A stretch of DNA of 6,150 nt from Caedimonas varicaedens (lineage in GTDB: Bacteria > Pseudomonadota > Alphaproteobacteria > Caedimonadales > Caedimonadaceae): NCBI GenBank assembly GCA_001192655.1, contig BBVC01000009.1, positions 1-6,150 of the forward strand, given 5' to 3'. The position numbers and the translations under genes were made by a program. Positions 1-5,837 of this stretch are shown here, piece by piece. Positions within the stretch are counted from its first letter, which is position 1; each line of letters begins with the position of its first letter. The notes under the pieces are model-generated. The model had not been told where the DNA came from, searched no databases, and saw nothing but the letters and a program-made list of their open reading frames with translations.

Positions 1-756
1 CCAATGGGCGTTGACAGGGTTTTTAATACACACATTCCCCGGCGTTTCAAGAGAGACGGAATCACACGTTCCTCCCCACAGGTCAATATTTCCCTGACCG
101 TCAATGTCCAGCGTTAATCCCCCCACCGACCATCGAATTCCGTTTTGCAGGGGTTCGCTGTGAGACAGGAGGGAATCTTTAAACAGCAAGGGATGTAAAA
201 GGGCTTGTCCCAGAAGGCGCTCTTGGCTTTCCTCTTCAGAGTCTTCGGGGATATCTTTCTGAAACGCGCGGAGGCGCAACCCTTGGGGTGGTTCTTCATC
301 GTCAGAGACAGGGGCGCGGTCTATATGAAGGCGCAGATCTGTCCCTCGGCGATACAGGGACTCGATTTTTTCACTTAAGGATTGGATGGCGTCTTTGAGA
401 GCAGCTTGAGCCTGGGCGAGAAGGGTTTTGGGTTCGGGTTCTTTTTTGGGAGACGAAGGTTTGGAGAAAGGGACATCGATGGACTGTTTTTCTAACACCT
501 CCAGATAAAGATCCGTCCGCTTTTTAAGAGGGAGGAGATCTTCTTCCTTGAGTCCTTTGGGCAGAGGGATCCGGGGAGAATAATCGATCTCTCCGGATTT
601 GGAGAGACGATGAGCCCACCCTTGTTCCAGGAGATCTTCTGAGAGAAGATCGGCTGTATAACGTCCTCCTCCCCGCTCATAAGGCCATTGCGCTAAACAG
701 CTTGTAAGAGTATGATTCCAAATGAGAAAGTAACAGAGTAGACGTTTCCAGAACAT
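1..756 (-). CDS. Putative secreted lipoprotein. N-terminal 252 codons only; the gene continues past the left edge of the window.
   Basis: Hand translation of the minus strand. ATG at 756 ('cat' at 754-756) is the first ATG after an in-frame TGA (784-786). The frame stays open to position 1. It is absent from the ORF track because no stop lies in the window. The N-terminus MFWKRLLCYFLIWNHTLTSC|LAQ has a basic n-region (KR), a hydrophobic core and an L-T-S-C lipobox. A purine-rich SD-like tract GGGAGGGGGA lies about 7-11 nt upstream. The rest is a charged/Pro-rich linker (KPSSPKKEPEPK) followed by ...GGLTLDIDGQGNIDLWGG.... Track ORFs 114..299 and 492..680 are off-frame inside it. Confidence 0.6.
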   Translation of the reverse strand, partial: MFWKRLLCYFLIWNHTLTSCLAQWPYERGGGRYTADLLSEDLLEQGWAHRLSKSGEIDYSPRIPLPKGLKEEDLLPLKKRTDLYLEVLEKQSIDVPFSKPSSPKKEPEPKTLLAQAQAALKDAIQSLSEKIESLYRRGTDLRLHIDRAPVSDDEEPPQGLRLRAFQKDIPEDSEEESQERLLGQALLHPLLFKDSLLSHSEPLQNGIRWSVGGLTLDIDGQGNIDLWGGTCDSVSLETPGNVCIKNPVNAHW

Positions 757-1012: not shown

Positions 1013-1450
1013 CTATTGAGACCGCATCATTTTCTGCTGAAGCCCCGCGATGTACTGTTGGCTTTTGGCGATCTGATCGGCAATCATCTTCTCTTTTTTC
1101 GCAATGTTCTTGTTAAACTCCGCTGTTTGCTTGTCAAAAGCTTGTTTCTGACGATCAAGATCTGTGAGAGAGTCTCCCGATTGCCCCTCTGACGGCAATA
1201 AAGCGCCGATCACGCTATGCAAGATCTTTAATTCTTCTCCTGCAGAGAGGGTCATCTCGTCACAACACACGGCAAGCATCCGTGAGAGAATCTTGCGCAG
1301 AAACACGGAACGCGCCTGAGGAACAACTTTTTGAATGTCCGTCTCGCTCAGAGACTCTTGACCTGTCAATACTTCCCGAAGGGTTTGTAAATCCTGTTGA
1401 AACAAGCTGTCCAGAGAAGCGACCAGATCGGTCATCGATGGTGTGGTCAT
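1013..1450 (-). CDS. Hypothetical protein, 145 aa, with a predicted coiled-coil C-terminus. Last gene of the reb-linked transcription unit.
   Basis: Track ORF. Its ATG overlaps the upstream stop as ATGA (1447-1450), which implies translational coupling. SD-like GAGGAAG lies 4 nt upstream. The C-terminal half (DLDRQKQAFDKQTAEFNKNIAKKEKMIADQIAKSQQYIAGLQQKMM) is heptad-like and K/Q/E-rich. I recognise no family. Confidence 0.65.
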   Translation of the reverse strand: MTTPSMTDLVASLDSLFQQDLQTLREVLTGQESLSETDIQKVVPQARSVFLRKILSRMLAVCCDEMTLSAGEELKILHSVIGALLPSEGQSGDSLTDLDRQKQAFDKQTAEFNKNIAKKEKMIADQIAKSQQYIAGLQQKMMRSQ

Positions 1451-1863
1451 AGAACTTCCTCTTCTTGAGACATGGAGGGAACATTCCCGCGCCCTACAGG
1501 AAACCCGTTGAGAATATCATCGGCTGTGGTACCCACCTCGCCCACAAATTTAATCATATCCGTGAGAGGAATCGCAGCCTTTGCGGCGGCTTCTGCCCAT
1601 TTGGCGGCAACAGCAGGACTAGGAGAGGATGCCGCTTTTTTCATAAAGACGGCTTGGGTGGCCTGTACAAGAGCTTCTGTGTTGAGAAGGGTCGTGTTGG
1701 CGTTTTAGATCATCTGCGCCATCGACTGCGCGACAGCCTGATACGCATTGCCGGTCGCTTGCTTGGCCGCATAATCATAGACTTCTTTATTGATAAACGA
1801 TACCGGATCCGTATCAATGGTCAGCACATTCCGGACTTTGGGGTTCTCATGGGAAGAAGACAT
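1447..1863 (-). pseudogene. Divergent Reb-like reading frame of 139 codons, interrupted by one in-frame TAA (1705-1707). It is a nonsense-mutated paralog, a read-through candidate, or two small CDSs (1705..1863, 52 aa; 1447..1644, 65 aa).
   Basis: A 52-aa ORF, too short for the track, runs ATG 1863 to TAA 1705: MSSSHENPKVRNVLTIDTDPVSFINKEVYDYAAKQATGNAYQAVAQSMAQMI*. It has the SD AAGGAA 7 nt upstream. The track ORF 1447..1644 is in the same frame (1704-1644 = 60 nt) and has no SD before its ATG (..CCAAGCCGTCTTTATG). The joined sequence GNAYQAVAQSMAQMI*NANTTLLNTEALVQATQAV aligns without gaps to SMVYQAMAQSVSLSMQNATYGQQQMQAISQAITTV of the 74-aa Reb paralog. The stop sits at the conserved Q of the QNAT motif. 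Confidence 0.5.
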
Positions 1864-1900
1864 CGCGGAGTTCCTTTTTCAATCCAACACATACCCTTTT

Positions 1901-2125
1901 TTATTGTTTCAGAAGATCCATAATCTTACTTGATCCTACCGTGGTAATGGCCTGACTGATAGCCTGCATCTGCTGCTGACCATAGGTGGCATTCTGCATG
2001 GAAAGACTCACCGATTGCGCCATGGCCTGATACACCATGGACATGGCCATAGCGGGCGATTCGGCCACCACCTTCACGTTGGTCTGGGTTACGGCATCCG
2101 TAACCTGTTCATTCACTCCGGCCAT
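1901..2125 (-). CDS. RebB-family R-body protein ('Killing trait' family), short core-only paralog, 74 aa
   Basis: MAGVNEQVTDAVTQTNVKVVAESPAMAMSMVYQAMAQSVSLSMQNATYGQQQMQAISQAITTVG... carries the family hallmarks I recognise: N-terminal VNxQ(I/V)TD(A/S)VTQ(T/S)NV, then YQA, then QNATxxQQQ. SD-like AAGGAA lies about 7 nt upstream. Confidence 0.85.
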   Translation of the reverse strand: MAGVNEQVTDAVTQTNVKVVAESPAMAMSMVYQAMAQSVSLSMQNATYGQQQMQAISQAITTVGSSKIMDLLKQ

Positions 2126-2180
2126 TGTCGTTTTTCCTTCCCTTCACACCACAGGGGAAAATGCTTCCCATGATTTCCTT

Positions 2181-2217
2181 AAAACAGGCGTATCCTATCA
2201 TAAGACGATCCTGTTTT
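2181..2217 (-). terminator. A-tract/stem/T-tract hairpin in the 97-nt gap between the third and fourth reb genes. Possible weak terminator, attenuator or mRNA-stabilising element.
   Basis: aaaacagg (2181-2188) and cctgtttt (2210-2217) are perfect complements around a 21-nt segment that can pair further (CGT/ACG). This is the only reb intergenic gap longer than 40 nt. The GC core is only 4 bp, so it is weak as a terminator. Confidence 0.3.
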
Positions 2218-2222
2218 TAACC

Positions 2223-2540
2223 CTATAAAATGCCAGGAATGAACAGGGTGTTAATGACGTCCGCAGGGATATCCGCACGGGCAACTTTCTCCGTAGCATC
2301 AGCAATGGCTTCCGTGTCCACTGCGTAAATCAGGTTGACGCCCTGTGATGTGACTGCCTGATGAACGGTATTGGTCTGTTGCTGACCAAAGGTCGCATTC
2401 TGAACCGCATTGGCAAGAGCGCTGGACGCTGCCTGATATAAATTGCTGGTGGCAACGGCAGCAGACTGCCCCAGGGTTGTGACATTGGATTGGGTCACCG
2501 CATCGGTGATCTGGTTATTGACAAATGTGGGATAAGCCAT
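2223..2540 (-). CDS. RebB-family R-body protein, long paralog, 105 aa
   Basis: MAYPTFVNNQITDAVTQSNVTTLGQSAAVATSNLYQAASSALANAVQNATFGQQQTNTVHQAVTSQGVNLIYAVDTEAIADATEKVARADIPAD.... By my hand alignment it matches the 116-aa paralog at about 73 of the first 94 residues. SD GAGGAG lies 7 nt upstream of the ATG. Confidence 0.9.
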   Translation of the reverse strand: MAYPTFVNNQITDAVTQSNVTTLGQSAAVATSNLYQAASSALANAVQNATFGQQQTNTVHQAVTSQGVNLIYAVDTEAIADATEKVARADIPADVINTLFIPGIL

Positions 2541-2570
2541 AGTAAAACTCCTCTTCTCTCTCGCAAATCT

Positions 2571-2906
2571 CTAGTAGCCGCCGTAGCGGTTGCCCTTGCT
2601 CACCATGAGCAGTCCCCTCTCAATAGATTGCAGCGTATTGTTCAGGCTGGACAACCCTTCTGACAGTTCGGATGACAGGTTCTCTGCACGACTTGAATCA
2701 GGTATTGGGATGATATGGTCGGCCAGGCTGGATAATCCCAGAATCTGGGCGTTCTGTTGGGCATAGACGGCATTATAGGCCATCAGGGCATGAGCGTGGC
2801 AGGTTGACAGTATCTGACTGGACAGGGCAATGGCGGGTGATTCCGCCATCACCGTGACGCTGGTTTGCGTCACTGAATCCGTCACCTGGTCATTGACCTC
2901 TGCCAT
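2571..2906 (-). CDS. Divergent RebB-family protein, 111 aa. Reb-like N-terminal about 60 aa fused to an unrelated Ser/Leu/Glu-rich C-terminal tail.
   Basis: MAEVNDQVTDSVTQTSVTVMAESPAIALSS... keeps the N-terminal Reb motif. The centre is degenerate: CHAHALMAYNAVYAQQNAQ replaces YQA...QNATxxQQQ. The tail (IPIPDSSRAENLSSELSEGLSSLNNTLQSIERGLLMVSKGNRYGGY) has no counterpart in the other three. SD AGGAGA lies 8 nt upstream. Confidence 0.8.
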   Translation of the reverse strand: MAEVNDQVTDSVTQTSVTVMAESPAIALSSQILSTCHAHALMAYNAVYAQQNAQILGLSSLADHIIPIPDSSRAENLSSELSEGLSSLNNTLQSIERGLLMVSKGNRYGGY

Positions 2907-2944
2907 CGCTCATGTCTCCTTCTGTCTCGTCAATCCTAGTCAGA

Positions 2945-3295
2945 TTAGGGACCGTAAGGATTTTTAGGAGTTGGGCTGTTCATCAATGACTTGAGAAGAA
3001 TGGCCGTAATGGTATCCGCAGGGATATCCGCACGGGAGATTTTCTCCGCAGCATCGGCAACCGCTGCTGTGTCTACCGCATAAATCAGGTTCACACCTTG
3101 TGTGGTGGTCGCTTGATGAATGAGGTTAGATTGTTGCTGCGCGAACGTAGCATTCTGTATCGCATTTGCAAGGGCGCTGGAGGTGGCCTGATACAAATTG
3201 CTCAGGGCAACAGCGGCGGACTCGCCAATGACTTTTACGTTTGACTGTGTGACGGCATCAGTAATCTGATCATTCACAGCGGTTGGATACCCCAT
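2945..3295 (-). CDS. RebB-family R-body protein, long paralog, 116 aa. First gene of the reb array.
   Basis: MGYPTAVNDQITDAVTQSNVKVIGESAAVALSNLYQATSSALANAIQNATFAQQQSNLIHQATTTQGVNLIYAVDTAAVADAAEKISRADIPAD... contains all family motifs. SD AAGGAG lies 8 nt upstream. It follows a 206-bp non-coding gap. Confidence 0.9.
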   Translation of the reverse strand: MGYPTAVNDQITDAVTQSNVKVIGESAAVALSNLYQATSSALANAIQNATFAQQQSNLIHQATTTQGVNLIYAVDTAAVADAAEKISRADIPADTITAILLKSLMNSPTPKNPYGP

Positions 3296-3501
3296 AGTAT
3301 AGACTCCTTTAACTCAAATATTGAAGATTTAATCCAATGAATCAGCCACAAAACACGCGTTGAGGTTGTTTTTGCATGATTCACACTTCCTCATTACATC
3401 ACGCTCCCCTCCTAAAAACAAGATAGGGGGATCGCGTTTGTCCACAGGATGGGCCCTGCTTTTTAACCGGGGATCTGGAAACGTCAGAATCTTGAGCACG
3501 A
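3296..3501 (-). promoter_or_regulatory. Non-coding gap between the methyltransferase stop and the first reb gene. Presumed promoter/5'-UTR region of the reb operon; no confident -35/-10 call.
   Basis: This is the largest non-coding gap inside the gene string, apart from 757-1012. Its 3' part (minus sense: ..TTGTGGCTGATTCATTGGATTAAATCTTCAATATTTGAGTTAAAGGAG) is AT-rich. I found only imperfect sigma70-like hexamers, so only the region is annotated. Confidence 0.3.
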
Positions 3502-4437
3502 TCATGGCATTTCTCGAATATTATCATAGACATGACCAACCATTGTGGGAATTACCGCATTGCCCAGCTGCCTTTGGGCTGTTCCCGCCACAGAAGAAAG
3601 AATATGACTGTCAGGGAATCCCATCACCCGTCGCCCTTCCATCAGAGAAAGATACCGCACCCGTCCATTGATATGATACATCCCTGTTTTGCCCTGATCG
3701 GTCATTTGAGTCACCGCATGACCGGACGGGCTGTAAATCTTCTGGGATTGGCTTTTCGTGCCAAAGTAACCTACGCGTAAGGTTGTGAGGGCTTTTTCTG
3801 TCAACCGTTCAGGATGGTCATACACAAAATCAGGACGATCCCGACAGAGCCTCTCCTCCACCGTGTCTTCCAGAACATCGCTCAGATAAATCTCTTCTCG
3901 TGTAGGTTGGGGGCATTCAGACTTCAAAGGCACATCCTCCCGAATTCCCACAAAATAGACGCGAATGCGCGACTGGGGAATCCCGTAAAGAGACGCATTC
4001 AGAAGATGATGGCCTATTTTATAACCCGTATCTTCAAAAGCCTTTGCAAAAACAGAGAGGATTTCTCCATCATCGATTCTGAGAAGATGGCGGACATTTT
4101 CCAGAAGAATCAGTTTAGGTCGATGAAAGCTCACAATCCGCATCATCTCGTAAAAGAGTTTCCCGTTGCTGCACTCCACGCTCTCGCCCTTGCCAGAAAT
4201 GGTAAAGGACTGGCACGGAAACCCGCCGCATAAAATATCATGAGGGGGAATCTTCCTCACATCGATGGTTCGAATATCTCCTTTGGGCATCTCGCCAAAG
4301 TTGGCGTGATACGCCTCACGGGTTCGGGGATCAATCTCTGAGGAAAACACACACTGCAATCCTCGTTGTTCAAGAGCAACCCTGAATCCGCCAATCCCGC
4401 AAAAAAGATCGATAAAGGTGCCGCATCCTTCTATCAT
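3502..4437 (-). CDS. dcm: DNA (cytosine-5)-methyltransferase, single-domain M.HhaI-like architecture, 311 aa from ATG 4437. The track start at 4452 would add MGALA.
   Basis: Canonical C5-MTase motifs in order: I FIDLFCGIGG (AdoMet binding), IV GFPCQ (catalytic Cys), VI LLENV, VIII QSRIRVY, IX RYLSLMEGRRVMGFPD, X QLGNAV. As I remember M.HhaI, the protein is collinear with it from MIE..FIDLF to GNxV. ATG 4437 has GGGAG 8 nt upstream and sits 2 nt after the upstream gene's TAG. ATG 4452 has no well-spaced SD. Confidence 0.9.
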   Translation of the reverse strand: MIEGCGTFIDLFCGIGGFRVALEQRGLQCVFSSEIDPRTREAYHANFGEMPKGDIRTIDVRKIPPHDILCGGFPCQSFTISGKGESVECSNGKLFYEMMRIVSFHRPKLILLENVRHLLRIDDGEILSVFAKAFEDTGYKIGHHLLNASLYGIPQSRIRVYFVGIREDVPLKSECPQPTREEIYLSDVLEDTVEERLCRDRPDFVYDHPERLTEKALTTLRVGYFGTKSQSQKIYSPSGHAVTQMTDQGKTGMYHINGRVRYLSLMEGRRVMGFPDSHILSSVAGTAQRQLGNAVIPTMVGHVYDNIREMP

Positions 4438-4439
4438 GG

Positions 4440-4676
4440 CTAATGCTCCCATCCTGTGCGTTCCATCTCCTCAAAGATAAACGAATCGTAAATACCCAGA
4501 TGACCGCTGTGGATAGCGTTATCATGATTCAGTCCATATCGAAGAGAATCACGATTCATAAAGCTATACGACCCATCATGATGTTTAGTGATAATAAAGC
4601 ATCCTGCCTCGTTCCGTTCTTTGGCAATCAGGCGGGCGGTGTCTTCAAGGCTTTCAAATGGCGGATATTTGCTCAT
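4440..4676 (-). CDS. Hypothetical protein, 78 aa
   Basis: Track ORF on the same strand, packed between neighbours. Its ATG is 1 nt after the upstream TAA (TAAGATG) and its TAG is 2 nt before the methyltransferase ATG. I recognise no family. It is too small to be a restriction endonuclease. Confidence 0.55.
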   Translation of the reverse strand: MSKYPPFESLEDTARLIAKERNEAGCFIITKHHDGSYSFMNRDSLRYGLNHDNAIHSGHLGIYDSFIFEEMERTGWEH

Positions 4677-4677
4677 C

Positions 4678-4965
4678 TTAGTGGATTTGAGGCCGTTCGG
4701 GTTTCATGTTTAAAAACATCTGCTCAATATTGCCCATAATAACGCTTCGAATGATCATCAGGGATTCTTCATCCGGGGCTTGCTGAATGAGGGTATTGAT
4801 AATCGTAAAAGCCACACTCATGGGGATAGAGGCCAGAGAATCTTCAGGGATTTTGTTGCGATGAATAAACTTCTTGCCCTCGTCAAAAACATGAGCCACA
4901 CACGTATCGGTGGTCTTGATCAGGTCTTTCTGAATCTTTTTACTCGGGATATATGCTTTGGTCAT
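4678..4965 (-). CDS. Hypothetical protein, 95 aa
   Basis: Track ORF. SD AGGAG lies 8 nt upstream of the ATG at 4965. It is co-directional and tightly coupled to the next gene. I recognise no family. Confidence 0.6.
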   Translation of the reverse strand: MTKAYIPSKKIQKDLIKTTDTCVAHVFDEGKKFIHRNKIPEDSLASIPMSVAFTIINTLIQQAPDEESLMIIRSVIMGNIEQMFLNMKPERPQIH

Positions 4966-4996
4966 GGGTTACGCTCCTGTTGTTGCTCAAACTCGG

Positions 4997-5350
4997 TTAA
5001 ATGGATAAGTATTGATCATTTTTCTGACTCATTTTCTTGTAGTGATAATCTGTTGGGCTCGGCGCTCTTTTCTTCATCTTTTGCCGTGGTTTAAACGCCG
5101 ATTGCTCTTCATAGACAAAAATAGGTTTCACGCCGTTCTTTTCTATCCAGGCGTTTTGATAATCCCTCCATTCTTGAGAATGGCTTAACGCATCACCAAT
5201 CTTGGAGAGAATTTCTCTTTCGGGAAGATTGCCCTTGAGCCTGTGAAGCGGATGCTTCTGAAAGGCTTGGATATAAGCGGTGCGGGCAAGATCAAGCGGG
5301 GTCATGACGTTTTTCTTTCTCCAAAAAGACGCCAGTACAAGCGGGGTCAT
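4997..5350 (-). CDS. Hypothetical basic protein. The start is ambiguous because the start region is tandemly duplicated: ATG 5350 gives 117 aa, ATG 5305 gives 102 aa, and the track start 5368 gives 123 aa.
   Basis: The track ORF begins MQKGNVMTPLVLASFWRKKNVMTPLDLARTAY, so NVMTPL occurs twice. ATG 5350 has AAGGAA 5 nt upstream. ATG 5305 has the degraded copy (GAAAAA). Both overlap the 3' end of the resolvase gene. I recognise no family. Confidence 0.55.
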   Translation of the reverse strand: MTPLVLASFWRKKNVMTPLDLARTAYIQAFQKHPLHRLKGNLPEREILSKIGDALSHSQEWRDYQNAWIEKNGVKPIFVYEEQSAFKPRQKMKKRAPSPTDYHYKKMSQKNDQYLSI

Positions 5351-5837
5351 GACGTTTCCTTTCTGCAAAAAGACGCCAGTACAGCAAAGCCAGGGCGTCG
5401 GCTTCGTTATGATCTTGAGGGACGTGTCCCTTCTCTCGTATGGCTTCTATCATTTTTTCTTTGGAAGCACTTCCGTTCCCCGTCATAAACTTCTTGATGG
5501 TTCCCACAGGAACGCCTTCATAGGGGATGCCCTCTTGCTCGCACCATGCGGTCAGATGCGCCATAAAGCCTCCGTAGACGTGAGAAGCGTCTGTTCCCAC
5601 ATGGCGGCGCACTTCTTCAAAATACACTTCGCCTATGCCGTTATTGATGGACTTCATCTCGTCCAGCCATTTTCTGAAACGAAGGAACCGCATCCCCCCT
5701 CCTGAATACCGGTCACAGGCGAAGGACATCACCCCAGAGGTGATGTGCCCCTGGGCAAATTCGAGATAAAGATGTCCACAGCGATAAATCGCCCAGCCTG
5801 TGGTCGTGCCGAGGTCAAGGGCGAGGAGGGAGGTCAT
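5292..5837 (-). CDS. RuvC-like crossover junction endodeoxyribonuclease (phage/plasmid-type Holliday junction resolvase), 181 aa
   Basis: RuvC-fold catalytic signature: N-terminal LALDLGTTTGWA (Asp8), central VYFEEV (Glu74/75), C-terminal QDHNEADALALL (Asp142/Asp147; compare the ..ADAADALA.. region of E. coli RuvC). Its size and context, next to a methyltransferase and small ORFs, fit the phage-encoded type. The last about 15 residues are encoded by the duplicated segment. Confidence 0.8.
   Translation of the reverse strand: MTSLLALDLGTTTGWAIYRCGHLYLEFAQGHITSGVMSFACDRYSGGGMRFLRFRKWLDEMKSINNGIGEVYFEEVRRHVGTDASHVYGGFMAHLTAWCEQEGIPYEGVPVGTIKKFMTGNGSASKEKMIEAIREKGHVPQDHNEADALALLYWRLFAERKRHDPACTGVFLEKEKRHDPA
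5293..5383. repeat. Two-copy tandem direct repeat, with copy A at 5293-5337 (45 nt) and copy B at 5338-5381 (44 nt) plus 2 shared nt
   Basis: Copy A: caagcggggtcatgacgtttttctttctccaaaaagacgccagta. Copy B: caagcggggtcatgacgtttcctttctgcaaaaagacgccagta. They differ by two substitutions and a 1-nt indel. The repeat spans the resolvase stop and the next gene's start. Confidence 0.9.

What the first reader, a model, noticed from the sequence alone, without database searches (positions are those of the whole stretch)
1901..3295. Tandem array of four RebB-family genes: an R-body (refractile ribbon) locus
Four consecutive small minus-strand ORFs (116, 111, 105 and 74 aa) share the N-terminal motif VNxQ(I/V)TD(A/S)VTQ(S/T)NV. 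Three of them also share YQA...QNATx(A/G)QQQ. I recognise these motifs from the Reb proteins of Caedibacter, the 'killer' endosymbiont of Paramecium. Reb proteins polymerise into coiled proteinaceous ribbons that extend at low pH and rupture membranes.

The array has three classes: a long pair with a shared ...YAVDT...RADIPAD C-terminal region, a short core-only form, and a hybrid form. Each gene has its own SD. Multiple co-expressed paralogs are what a functional R-body operon needs. The array therefore looks like a working membrane-breaking machine rather than a stray homolog.
Basis: partly seen in the sequence, partly recalled or inferred. Interest (0 to 1): 0.8.

Follow-up and report, generated by a model that had tools for sequence, protein, structure and literature searches.

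The report
R-body gene cassette, one gene broken
This is a real but ordinary R-body locus of the type found in protist endosymbionts, carried on a phage- or plasmid-like element; it has six genes rather than four, and the fifth, a relative of the assembly factor RebC, is cut by a premature stop codon.

Summary
Four minus-strand ORFs (2945-3295, 2571-2906, 2223-2540, 1901-2125) all pass Pfam RebB (PF11747) at 54-92 bits, against a cut-off of 24.

The closest named relatives are Holosporales protist endosymbionts: Ca. Bealeia plasmid, Caedimonas and Ca. Finniella (61-77% identity). The backbone is phage-like, with Dcm and a RuvC-like resolvase similar to that of Wolbachia phage WO.

A 138-codon gene (1447-1863) and a 145-aa gene (1013-1450) follow, and both are conserved in every related locus.

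The 138-codon gene belongs to a partner family found only in reb clusters (Raymann's HP1.2). By profile search that family includes Caedibacter RebC, which two surveys reported as having no homologues. The gene order long-long-short-RebC-like therefore mirrors type 51 rebA-rebB-rebD-rebC.

In this window the gene carries an in-frame TAA (1705-1707) at a Gln that is invariant in the family. All six genes show purifying selection (dN/dS 0.07-0.20), so the stop is recent, polymorphic or an error.

"R-body locus" is supported. "Working machine" and "low-pH trigger" are not established. This is a new member of a known kind, of moderate interest.

The parts
3393..3421 (-). Candidate promoter of the reb cassette: TTGTTT, 17 nt, TGTAAT, with a TGn extended -10. 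It lies about 98 nt upstream of the first reb start codon.
   Evidence: There is a single match in the window and none in 200 shuffles. The core GAGCGTGATGTAMTGA is conserved in L006 and L001 although the upstream genes differ. This is inference only; the generic promoter scan did not flag it.
2945..3295 (-). reb gene 1: 116-aa long RebB-family protein (RebA/RebB-like, probably group 1B of Dorr et al.).
   Evidence: Pfam RebB 92.3 bits. It is 73% identical to the Caedimonas 'killing trait' protein P0018 and 72-77% to Bealeia plasmid Reb proteins. dN/dS against L006 is 0.10.
2571..2906 (-). reb gene 2: 111-aa divergent RebB-family protein. It has the N-terminal QVTD domain, then a CHAHAL-type middle region and its own C-terminus.
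   Evidence: Pfam RebB 54.0 bits over profile positions 1-54. Orthologues are the L006 111-aa protein (53% identity) and the Bealeia 90-aa protein (54% over 50 aa). dN/dS is 0.20.
2223..2540 (-). reb gene 3: 105-aa long RebB-family protein, a paralogue of gene 1 (70% identity).
   Evidence: Pfam RebB 81.7 bits. There is a 293-nt direct repeat with gene 1 at 74% identity. dN/dS is 0.14-0.17.
1901..2125 (-). reb gene 4: 74-aa short RebB-family protein (RebD-like in architecture and position).
   Evidence: Pfam RebB 88.5 bits. It is 83% identical to the L006 78-aa protein, 73% to the Bealeia 77-aa protein and 42% over 69 aa to C. taeniospiralis RebD, and shares the C-terminal ...(K/R)IM... ending. 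It sits immediately before the RebC-like gene, as rebD does in pKAP298. dN/dS is 0.07.
1447..1863 (-). Gene 5: 138-codon RebC/HP1.2-family gene interrupted by an in-frame TAA. It reads as a 52-aa ORF plus an 85-codon remainder.
   Evidence: A single frame runs across the TAA. Uninterrupted orthologues of 138-140 aa exist in L005, L006 and the P0002 contig. The family profile hits both fragments at 75 and 48 bits. The family includes the A. brasilense protein at the HP1.2 position (118 bits) and C. taeniospiralis RebC (53-70 bits). It is distantly related to RebB (hhalign 88.7-95.5%).
1705..1707 (-). The premature stop: TAA at codon 53 of gene 5.
   Evidence: It aligns with a Gln that is invariant in alignments A2, A6 and A10 (RebC included) and at least 90% conserved across 39 family representatives. 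L006 has CAA and L005 has CAG at this codon. TAA, TAG and TGA all serve as true stops in neighbouring genes.
1013..1450 (-). Gene 6: 145-aa all-helical protein specific to Holosporales-type reb cassettes. Its ATG overlaps the TGA of gene 5 (ATGA).
   Evidence: Orthologues follow the RebC-like gene in L005, L006, the P0002 contig, Bealeia (153 aa, 27% identity, E 1e-9) and Finniella (151 aa). The profile hits nothing in the 80 distant reb loci. The AlphaFold2 model has four helices and pLDDT 72. dN/dS is 0.13-0.17.
3413..3505 (-). Context: remnant of a peptide deformylase gene. Only the first ~31 codons survive; the 58-aa ORF 3329-3505 reads on into non-homologous sequence.
   Evidence: tblastn with the L006 deformylase matches only residues 3-31 (E 4e-6). 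Relatives have an intact 165-167-aa def gene between dcm and reb. L001 shares the deletion.
3502..4452 (-). Context: C-5 cytosine DNA methyltransferase (Dcm), 316 aa.
   Evidence: Pfam DNA_methylase 243.8 bits, TIGR00675 235 bits, phrog_116 238 bits. It is syntenic in the P0002 contig and in L006.
5292..5837 (-). Context: phage-type RuvC-like Holliday junction resolvase, 181 aa.
   Evidence: phrog_159 E 2.9e-29. It is 53-58% identical to resolvases of Wolbachia phage WO, Ralstonia and Acidithiobacillus phages, 82% to L006 and 57% to a gene of the Bealeia plasmid.

Best explanation
Window 1013-3421 (minus strand) is a six-gene R-body cassette of the alphaproteobacterial (Holosporales, Caedimonas-like) type. 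It is carried on a phage- or plasmid-like mobile element.

How it is expected to work, by homology with the type 51 system (inferred, not shown here):
- The two long RebA/RebB-like proteins (116 and 105 aa) are the main ribbon subunits.
- The 74-aa RebD-like protein is a minor subunit that helps start the roll.
- The 138-codon RebC-family protein is an assembly factor that is not incorporated. It steers the subunits into an ordered alpha-helical lamellar roll rather than aggregates.
- The 111-aa divergent Reb protein and the 145-aa helical protein are lineage-specific extras of unknown role.
- The finished roll lies in the bacterial cytoplasm. After the bacterium is eaten by a protist, the roll extends and ruptures the vacuole membrane.

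In this copy the RebC-family gene is cut at codon 53 by a TAA. As sequenced, the cassette most likely cannot assemble proper rolls efficiently. The lesion is very recent, or is one allele in the population, because the rest of the gene and all its neighbours still look selected.
For: Shown:
- Four RebB-family genes lie above the Pfam cut-off.
- The closest named homologues are Reb proteins of Bealeia (plasmid), Caedimonas and Finniella.
- The six-gene order is conserved in L005, L006, the P0002 contig, Bealeia and Finniella.
- dN/dS is 0.07-0.20 for all six genes, and 0.11 for the part of gene 5 after the stop.
- Gene 5 belongs to a family found beside RebB arrays in 50 of 80 distant loci and at the HP1.2 position in A. 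brasilense.
- That family includes the 114-aa, 12.5-kDa RebC of pKAP298: 70 bits, or 53 bits (E 2e-14 among 12,303 ORFs) without its closest relative. jackhmmer started from RebC alone recovers both window fragments.
- The TAA sits at an invariant Gln, one C-to-T change away from the CAA of L006.
- The backbone is phage-like.

From the literature:
- Without RebC, roll formation largely fails and subunits aggregate; RebD was detected only when RebC was present (bioRxiv 10.64898/2026.05.21.725848).
- A non-Reb partner gene is essential in Azorhizobium (PMC5527310).
- R-body determinants of Caedimonas and Caedibacter lie on plasmids or phage-like elements (PMC11909080).
Against: - No expression or protein data exist for this sequence.
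- The TAA rests on a single assembled sequence. No second contig covers it (L001 ends at window 2670), so an assembly error or a minority allele cannot be excluded.
- Whether the RebC-family partner is required in Holosporales-type cassettes is untested. The requirement is known only for type 51, whose Reb proteins are 37-48% identical to these.
- R-bodies have never been observed in Bealeia or Finniella (PMC11909080), so even intact cassettes of this type may be conditional or cryptic.
- The assignment of the 74-aa protein to the RebD class rests on length, C-terminal ending and gene position. BLAST scores against RebA, RebB and RebD are equal (61-63 bits).
- The promoter is a consensus match plus conservation in only one independent relative, L006; L001 is the same lineage as the window (98% identical).
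Confidence: 0.6

Rival explanations
1. The cassette is fully functional. Either the TAA is a sequencing or assembly error or a rare allele, or the RebC-family protein is dispensable here, for example because the 145-aa protein or the extra 111-aa Reb protein covers its role. The bacterium would then make normal R-bodies.
For: Codons downstream of the stop still show strong purifying selection (dN/dS 0.11, 12 synonymous against 4 conservative changes versus L005). All four RebB genes are intact and match their orthologues in length. Heruth's early work, as cited in PMC3583457, shows that not every reb gene is strictly required for some R-body formation in E. coli.
Against: The stop is at an invariant residue of a gene conserved in every related cassette. 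Errors that create a stop at one specific base are rare in consensus assemblies. The neighbouring def gene has also been lost in this lineage, so local gene loss does occur. In type 51, loss of RebC abolishes efficient roll formation (bioRxiv 10.64898/2026.05.21.725848).
Confidence: 0.3
2. The cassette is a cryptic or decaying passenger of a mobile element. It is carried along but no longer (or never) makes R-bodies in this host, and the stop codon is the first visible step of pseudogenisation.
For: There is a nonsense codon in gene 5 and a def remnant next door. R-bodies were never observed in Bealeia or Finniella despite intact cassettes (PMC11909080). Bealeia has what looks by eye like a truncated extra copy of the RebC-like gene (71-aa ORF).
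Against: dN/dS of 0.07-0.20 in all six genes against two relatives, with no frameshifts or other stops. The cassette is conserved across at least five lineages at dS above 1, which argues for long-term function.
Confidence: 0.08
3. The RebB-family proteins here build something other than a membrane-rupturing R-body, for example a phage-associated scaffold or inclusion linked to the phage-like element.
For: The backbone is phage-like. The 116-aa RebB protein hits a phage protein family of unknown function, phrog_32040, at E 1.8e-22. R-bodies of Caedimonas are historically linked to phage-like particles (PMC11909080).
Against: Every experimentally studied RebB-family cluster (Caedibacter, Azorhizobium, Pseudomonas PA14) makes R-bodies (PMC5527310, PMC8322103). 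No RebB homologue was found in 50,697 deposited phage genomes. Gene order matches the type 51 R-body operon, including RebC.
Confidence: 0.03

Closest known systems
Holosporales reb clusters: Caedimonas varicaedens (cvReb; group 1B seed cvRebC), Ca. Bealeia paramacronuclearis plasmid pBealeia1, Ca. Finniella inopinata chromosomal island
   Same: These hold the closest named proteins: 72-77% identity in Bealeia, 73% in Caedimonas, 61-68% in Finniella. The cassette logic is the same: long Reb proteins, a short Reb of 71-78 aa, a RebC/HP1.2-like gene of 111-152 aa, then a helical protein of 145-153 aa. The window shares a RuvC-like backbone gene with pBealeia1 (57% identity) and has mobile-element context.
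   Different: The number of Reb genes differs (4 here, 6 in Bealeia, 3 in Finniella). The dcm-def neighbourhood is shared only with uncultured relatives. This copy has the nonsense codon and the def deletion. The host organism is unknown: the exact sequence occurs only on a 1146-bp JGI metagenome contig.
Type 51 R-body operon of Caedibacter taeniospiralis (pKAP298/pKAP47: rebA, rebB, rebD, rebC)
   Same: It consists of RebB-family paralogues. The gene order is the same: two long, one short, then a RebC-family gene. It lies on an extrachromosomal element that carries phage genes. It is the only system in which the roles of each gene have been dissected.
   Different: It is from a gammaproteobacterium, and its proteins are only 37-50% identical to the window's. 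It has no 111-aa CHAHAL-type Reb protein. The gene after rebC (95 aa) is unrelated to the 145-aa family (hhalign probability 0.4%). Low-pH reversible telescopic extension is documented for type 51 only.
Group 1 reb synteny of Raymann et al. 2013 (e.g. the Azospirillum brasilense plasmid: Reb x4, HP1.4, HP1.3, HP1.2, HP1.1)
   Same: The window's gene 5 is a member of the family at the HP1.2 position (118 bits against the 116-aa A. brasilense protein). A short Reb protein precedes the partner genes.
   Different: There are no HP1.1 (~360 aa) or HP1.3 (~170 aa, proline-rich tail) equivalents in the window. The 145-aa gene is absent from Group 1 loci.
Pseudomonas aeruginosa PA14 reb cluster (RebP1, RebP2, RebD, RapA)
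   Same: It works the same way: RebB-family subunits plus a conserved partner protein not annotated as Reb (RapA) that was recovered with the R-body fraction (PMC8322103).
   Different: It is chromosomal, regulated by a sigma factor and a transcription factor, and belongs to a different Reb group. Homology between RapA and the window's gene 5 was not tested because no sequence was available.

Membership tests
Pfam PF11747 RebB ('Killing trait') | Whole-protein score at or above the curated gathering score (24 bits) | tested here: met
   92.3, 54.0, 81.7 and 88.5 bits for the 116-, 111-, 105- and 74-aa proteins. The 52-aa ORF 1705-1863 scores 18.4 bits, which is below the cut-off and so is not a member by this test.
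Pfam PF11747 RebB ('Killing trait') | Signature motifs described by Dorr et al. 2026: Q(I/V)TD in domain 1, a conserved Tyr in domain 2, and NA(T/V) plus QQQ in domain 3 | tested here: met
   All motifs are present in the 116-, 105- and 74-aa proteins. The 111-aa protein has QVTD and NAVYAQQN but lacks the Tyr and the full QQQ (alignments; motifs from PMC13430693).
R-body gene cluster (likely producer, criterion of Dorr et al. 2026) | At least three reb-homologous genes in one cluster | tested here: met
   Four RebB-family genes lie within 1.4 kb on one strand.
Type 51-like R-body operon (rebA, rebB, rebD, rebC) | Two long structural paralogues plus a short RebD-like paralogue | tested here: met
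   116 and 105 aa (70% identical), plus 74 aa that aligns over 69 residues with ctRebD. The class assignment of the short form rests on architecture and position, not on score.
Type 51-like R-body operon (rebA, rebB, rebD, rebC) | A RebC-family assembly-factor gene directly after the short reb gene | tested here: met
   Gene 5 (1447-1863) is homologous to the 114-aa, 12.5-kDa RebC of pKAP298. The family profile scores RebC at 53-70 bits, and jackhmmer from RebC recovers both window fragments.
Type 51-like R-body operon (rebA, rebB, rebD, rebC) | All required genes have intact reading frames | tested here: not met
   There is an in-frame TAA at codon 53 of the RebC-family gene, at an invariant Gln. 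The four RebB genes and the 145-aa gene are intact.
Functional R-body | Forms an SDS-insoluble ladder or a refractile rolled ribbon | not testable with these tools
   This needs heterologous expression with TEM and SDS-PAGE.
Functional R-body | Extends on a trigger (low pH for type 51) and ruptures membranes | not testable with these tools
   The trigger differs among R-body types (PMC3583457). No solved structure exists for modelling (no PDB sequence match).
Killer trait (R-body plus toxin plus immunity) | An associated toxin gene | tested here: inconclusive
   No known toxin domain was found in the window by Pfam, NCBIfam or PHROGs. The toxin is unidentified even in Caedibacter and Caedimonas (PMC11909080). 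An orphan ORF truncated by the window edge at 1-756 has no homologues.
Raymann Group 1 reb synteny | Presence of HP1.1, HP1.2, HP1.3 and HP1.4 next to the reb genes | tested here: not met
   Only the HP1.2-type gene (gene 5) is present. No ~360-aa or ~170-aa partner lies in the window or in the Holosporales relatives.

The most novel reading that the evidence does not exclude
The in-frame TAA may be a switch rather than a defect. R-bodies are made by only a small, non-dividing fraction of the endosymbiont population. A stop codon in the RebC-family assembly factor, bypassed at low frequency by read-through or by reversion (TAA to CAA is one transition), could restrict productive and lethal R-body assembly to a few cells, while the structural genes stay under selection.

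In the nuclear genetic code of the Paramecium hosts of related endosymbionts (recalled from general knowledge, not checked here), TAA encodes Gln, the residue expected at this position. However, the window's own genes use TAA as a true stop, so recoding in the bacterium is not supported.
Probability: 0.04. Interest if true: 0.7.

Novelty: new member of a known kind. Interest (0 to 1): 0.4.

Why it matters
As an R-body locus the window is ordinary. Reb genes are known in hundreds of taxa, and Reb genes are already known in Holosporales (Caedimonas, Bealeia, Finniella).

Three points add value:
1. Cassettes of this type have six conserved genes, not just the RebB paralogues. Two of the six are annotated only as hypothetical proteins.
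2. The fifth gene links three things that the literature treats separately: RebC of type 51 (reported to have no homologues), the HP1.2 partner found only in reb clusters, and the RebB fold itself. If this holds, the recent genetics of RebC as an assembly factor can be tested in many R-body systems.
3. This copy is a natural nonsense allele of that factor.

Tried and rejected
- Megablast of the whole window against PLSDB plasmids and INPHARED phages found no match.
- An exact-protein look-up found only a 1146-bp metagenome contig, so the host organism is not identified.
It returned only distant RebB loci (47-63% identity) and missed the Holosporales genomes. Those loci were useful later as a test set.
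- The viral-contig scan gave only 16-40-residue matches, which are not real RebB genes.
- tblastn found no RebB in deposited phages.
- No PDB sequence relative of RebB was found.
- The AlphaFold2 model of the 145-aa protein is all-helical, and Foldseek against PDB gave nothing below E 3.7.
- The 95-aa gene after rebC in pKAP298 is unrelated to the 145-aa family.
- NCBIfam has no model for any cassette protein. Cluster names for the gene-5 family are all 'hypothetical' or spurious.
- There are no tRNA genes and no Rfam families in the window.
- Generic promoter and terminator scans were not above chance.
- An alternative genetic code (TAA = Gln) was rejected. TAA ends the 116-aa and 74-aa genes exactly where their orthologues end, and TAG and TGA are also used as stops.
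- Independent translation of the 65-aa ORF 1447-1644 was considered. No Shine-Dalgarno sequence precedes its ATG (sequence), and no relative has a separate gene there.
Full report
**1. Observation**

| ORF | Length |
|---|---|
| 2945-3295 | 116 aa |
| 2571-2906 | 111 aa |
| 2223-2540 | 105 aa |
| 1901-2125 | 74 aa |

Each is preceded by an AGGAG-like Shine-Dalgarno sequence (sequence). The shared motifs are real (alignment A1), with one small correction: the 111-aa protein has VTQTSV rather than ...NV. Base composition across the array is unremarkable, at 48-52% G+C.

**2. Family test**

All four proteins match Pfam PF11747 (RebB, 'Killing trait') at 92.3, 54.0, 81.7 and 88.5 bits, against a gathering score of 24. 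NCBIfam has no model for them.

A search of 5.8 billion proteins found 651 relatives. The closest named ones are:
- 'RebB family R body protein' of the Ca. Bealeia paramacronuclearis plasmid (77% identity);
- 'killing trait' of Caedimonas varicaedens (73%);
- RebB of Ca. Finniella inopinata (61-68%).

These three are exactly the Holosporales known to carry reb genes (PMC11909080). By the 40%-identity rule of Dorr et al. (PMC13430693, Table S1), the 116-aa protein probably falls in their rare group 1B, whose seed is the 133-aa cvRebC. P0018 is a 133-aa Caedimonas protein. Identity to type 51 RebA, RebB and RebD of Caedibacter taeniospiralis is only 37-50%.

**3. The cassette is larger than the finding**

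Downstream of the 74-aa gene, the ORF list shows a 52-aa ORF (1705-1863) and a 65-aa ORF (1447-1644). They are in one frame, separated by a single TAA.

Related contigs carry one uninterrupted gene of 138-140 aa at this position, followed by a 145-aa gene whose ATG overlaps the preceding stop (ATGA). This holds for the 118.8-kb contig of P0002, L005 and L006.

The Bealeia plasmid has RebB x6, then a 152-aa gene, a 71-aa ORF and a 153-aa gene. A Finniella chromosomal island has RebB 108, 115 and 71 aa, then genes of 111 and 151 aa, then an integrase. Alignments confirm that both extra genes are orthologous across all these loci.

The unit is therefore six genes, spanning window 1013-3295, plus a conserved upstream block. 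That block contains a promoter-like TTGTTT-17-TGTAAT at 3393-3421, which is conserved in L006 although the upstream genes differ. The promoter is inference only.

**4. What gene 5 is**

The interrupted gene weakly resembles RebB. Its N-terminal fragment scores 18.4 bits in Pfam, and hhalign of its family against a RebB alignment gives 88.7% probability.

A profile search of 1.84 billion representatives found only 40 family representatives. They have no Pfam or NCBIfam model and only 'hypothetical' names.

When the family profile was run over the 80 distant RebB loci fetched, it hit a specific ORF in 50 of them, at about 78-137 bits. Most of these ORFs had no RebB-profile hit, and none scored even half as high against the RebB profile. 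They lie on the same strand as the RebB genes and usually downstream of them. The loci include Xanthomonas, Stenotrophomonas, Pseudoalteromonas, Pedobacter, Burkholderia, myxobacteria and cyanobacteria.

In the Azospirillum brasilense plasmid, which Raymann et al. cite as carrying all four Group 1 partner genes, the profile hits the 116-aa 'hypothetical protein' at 118 bits. That protein sits at the size and position of their HP1.2 (PMC3583457).

**5. Link to RebC**

On pKAP298, the gene table omits genes that cross the record origin. Joining the two ends reveals a 114-aa ORF 8 nt downstream of rebD. Three things identify it as RebC:
- Its length equals that of ctRebC (WP_011178482.1, 114 aa) in Dorr's seed table.
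- Its mass is 12.52 kDa, matching 'RebC (12.5 kDa)' in bioRxiv 10.64898/2026.05.21.725848.
[quoted passage not shown] That paper also records the original 56-aa annotation of RebC.

The evidence that RebC belongs to the gene-5 family is as follows:
- RebC matches the family profile over its whole length at 70.2 bits.
- It still scores 53.1 bits (E 2e-14 among 12,303 background ORFs) after its closest relative is removed from the profile.
- jackhmmer started from RebC alone recovers the HP1.2-type ORFs in 76 loci, including both fragments of the window's gene (E 1e-12 and 3e-7).
- Single-sequence phmmer finds only marginal hits (E about 1e-3).

The weak single-sequence signal probably explains why two BLASTP-based surveys reported that RebC has no homologues (PMC3583457; PMC13430693). 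With RebC included, the family aligns to the RebB family at 95.5% probability over 71 N-terminal columns.

The window's order (long, divergent, long, short, RebC-like) thus mirrors type 51 rebA-rebB-rebD-rebC. The 95-aa gene after rebC in pKAP298 is unrelated to the window's 145-aa gene. The 145-aa family occurs only in the Holosporales-type loci. Its AlphaFold2 model is four helices (pLDDT 72), with no structural match in PDB.

**6. The stop codon**

The TAA (window 1705-1707) replaces a Gln. That Gln is invariant in the Holosporales orthologues, in Finniella, in A. brasilense and in RebC itself. It is at least 90% conserved across 39 family representatives. It is the Q of the family's (I/V)Q(N/D)A motif, which corresponds to the QNA motif of RebB.

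L006 has CAA at this codon, so one C-to-T change suffices. TAA, TAG and TGA all terminate neighbouring genes where their orthologues end, so recoding is not supported. No Shine-Dalgarno sequence precedes the internal ATG at 1644.

All six genes have dN/dS of 0.07-0.20 against L005 and L006, including 0.11 for the codons after the stop. The lesion is therefore recent, polymorphic or an assembly error. No second contig covers it; L001 is 98% identical to the window but ends at 2670.

Because gene 6 starts in an ATGA overlap with gene 5, early termination may also lower its translation (inference).

**7. Context**

Upstream lie a Dcm methyltransferase (244 bits) and the remnant of a peptide deformylase gene. 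Only 29 N-terminal residues of the deformylase are still recognisable, whereas relatives keep the full 165-167-aa gene.

Further upstream is a RuvC-like resolvase (phrog_159, E 3e-29). It is 53-58% identical to resolvases of Wolbachia phage WO and other phages and 57% identical to a gene of the Bealeia plasmid. Related contigs add RecT, a primase-helicase and integrases.

This fits the classic association of Caedimonas and Caedibacter R-bodies with plasmids and phage-like particles (PMC11909080). The element could not be classed as phage or plasmid: RebB is absent from deposited phage genomes, and the window matches no known plasmid or phage at the DNA level.

**8. Mechanism and verdict**

By homology, the two long proteins are the main ribbon subunits and the short one is a minor nucleating subunit. 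The RebC-family protein is an assembly factor that is not incorporated and that favours ordered alpha-helical lamellae over aggregation. These roles were shown only for type 51 (bioRxiv 10.64898/2026.05.21.725848).

The roll would extend after uptake by a protist and break the vacuole membrane. The trigger for this subtype is unknown, since R-body types differ in trigger and in mode of unrolling (PMC3583457).

- The claim of a working machine is not established, and as sequenced it is doubtful.
- The low-pH trigger is an extrapolation from a distant system.
- This is a new member of a known kind.

The most useful by-product is the sequence link between RebC, the HP1.2 partner family and the RebB fold, which I did not find in the papers read here.

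Noticed in passing
L097 (pKAP298, NC_005915.1) 48821-49112 joined to 1-53, minus strand: The 114-aa, 12.5-kDa RebC of Caedibacter taeniospiralis is a member of the widespread partner family found only in reb clusters (Raymann's HP1.2). Two surveys reported it as having no homologues. The family is itself a distant relative of RebB (hhalign 95.5%).
   Followed up: yes
window 3413-3505 (-), within ORF 3329-3505: This is the remnant of a peptide deformylase gene. Only about 30 N-terminal codons survive, and the rest (about 135 codons) has been deleted. Relatives keep an intact def gene between dcm and the reb genes, and the 98%-identical contig L001 shares the deletion.
   Followed up: yes
window 1-756 (-): An open reading frame of at least 252 aa starts at ATG 756 and runs off the left edge of the window, just downstream of the cassette. 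It has a hydrophobic N-terminus and is rich in acidic residues and proline. It has no match in Pfam, in the plasmid collection or in any fetched locus. It could be cargo of the element; a toxin role would be pure speculation.
   Followed up: partly
window 5286-5383: A tandem duplication of about 45 nt (two overlapping repeat families, 89-93% identical) lies where the 3' end of the RuvC-like gene overlaps the 123-aa ORF. It produces a repeated NVMTPL(V/D)LA peptide in the latter.
   Followed up: no
window 2223-2540 versus 2945-3295: The 105-aa Reb protein is closer to its neighbour, the 116-aa paralogue (70% identity, 152 bits), than to its positional orthologue in L006 (62%, 132 bits). The 116-aa protein is 83% identical to its own orthologue. 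This suggests gene conversion or an independent duplication within this lineage.
   Followed up: no
L002 (Bealeia plasmid) 5187-5402: A 71-aa ORF lies between the RebC-like gene and the 153-aa gene. By eye it resembles the N-terminus of the RebC-like family (compare P0142, 193 aa). It may be a truncated second copy, which would mean partner-gene decay is not unique to the window.
   Followed up: no
window 5292-5837 (-): The RuvC-like resolvase is 53-58% identical to resolvases of Wolbachia phage WO, Ralstonia phage YO164_3 and Acidithiobacillus phage AcaML1. This points to a phage WO-like backbone in an alphaproteobacterial endosymbiont.
   Followed up: partly
window 2945-3295 (-): The 116-aa RebB protein matches PHROG family phrog_32040 (unknown function) at E 1.8e-22, so RebB-like proteins occur in the prophage and virus data behind PHROGs. 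None was found in the 50,697 deposited phage genomes.
   Followed up: partly
window 4440-5368 (-): Three small ORFs (78, 95 and 123 aa) between dcm and the resolvase have no family match. The 95-aa and 123-aa ORFs are conserved in L006 (73% and 68% identity), so they are probably real genes of the mobile element.
   Followed up: partly
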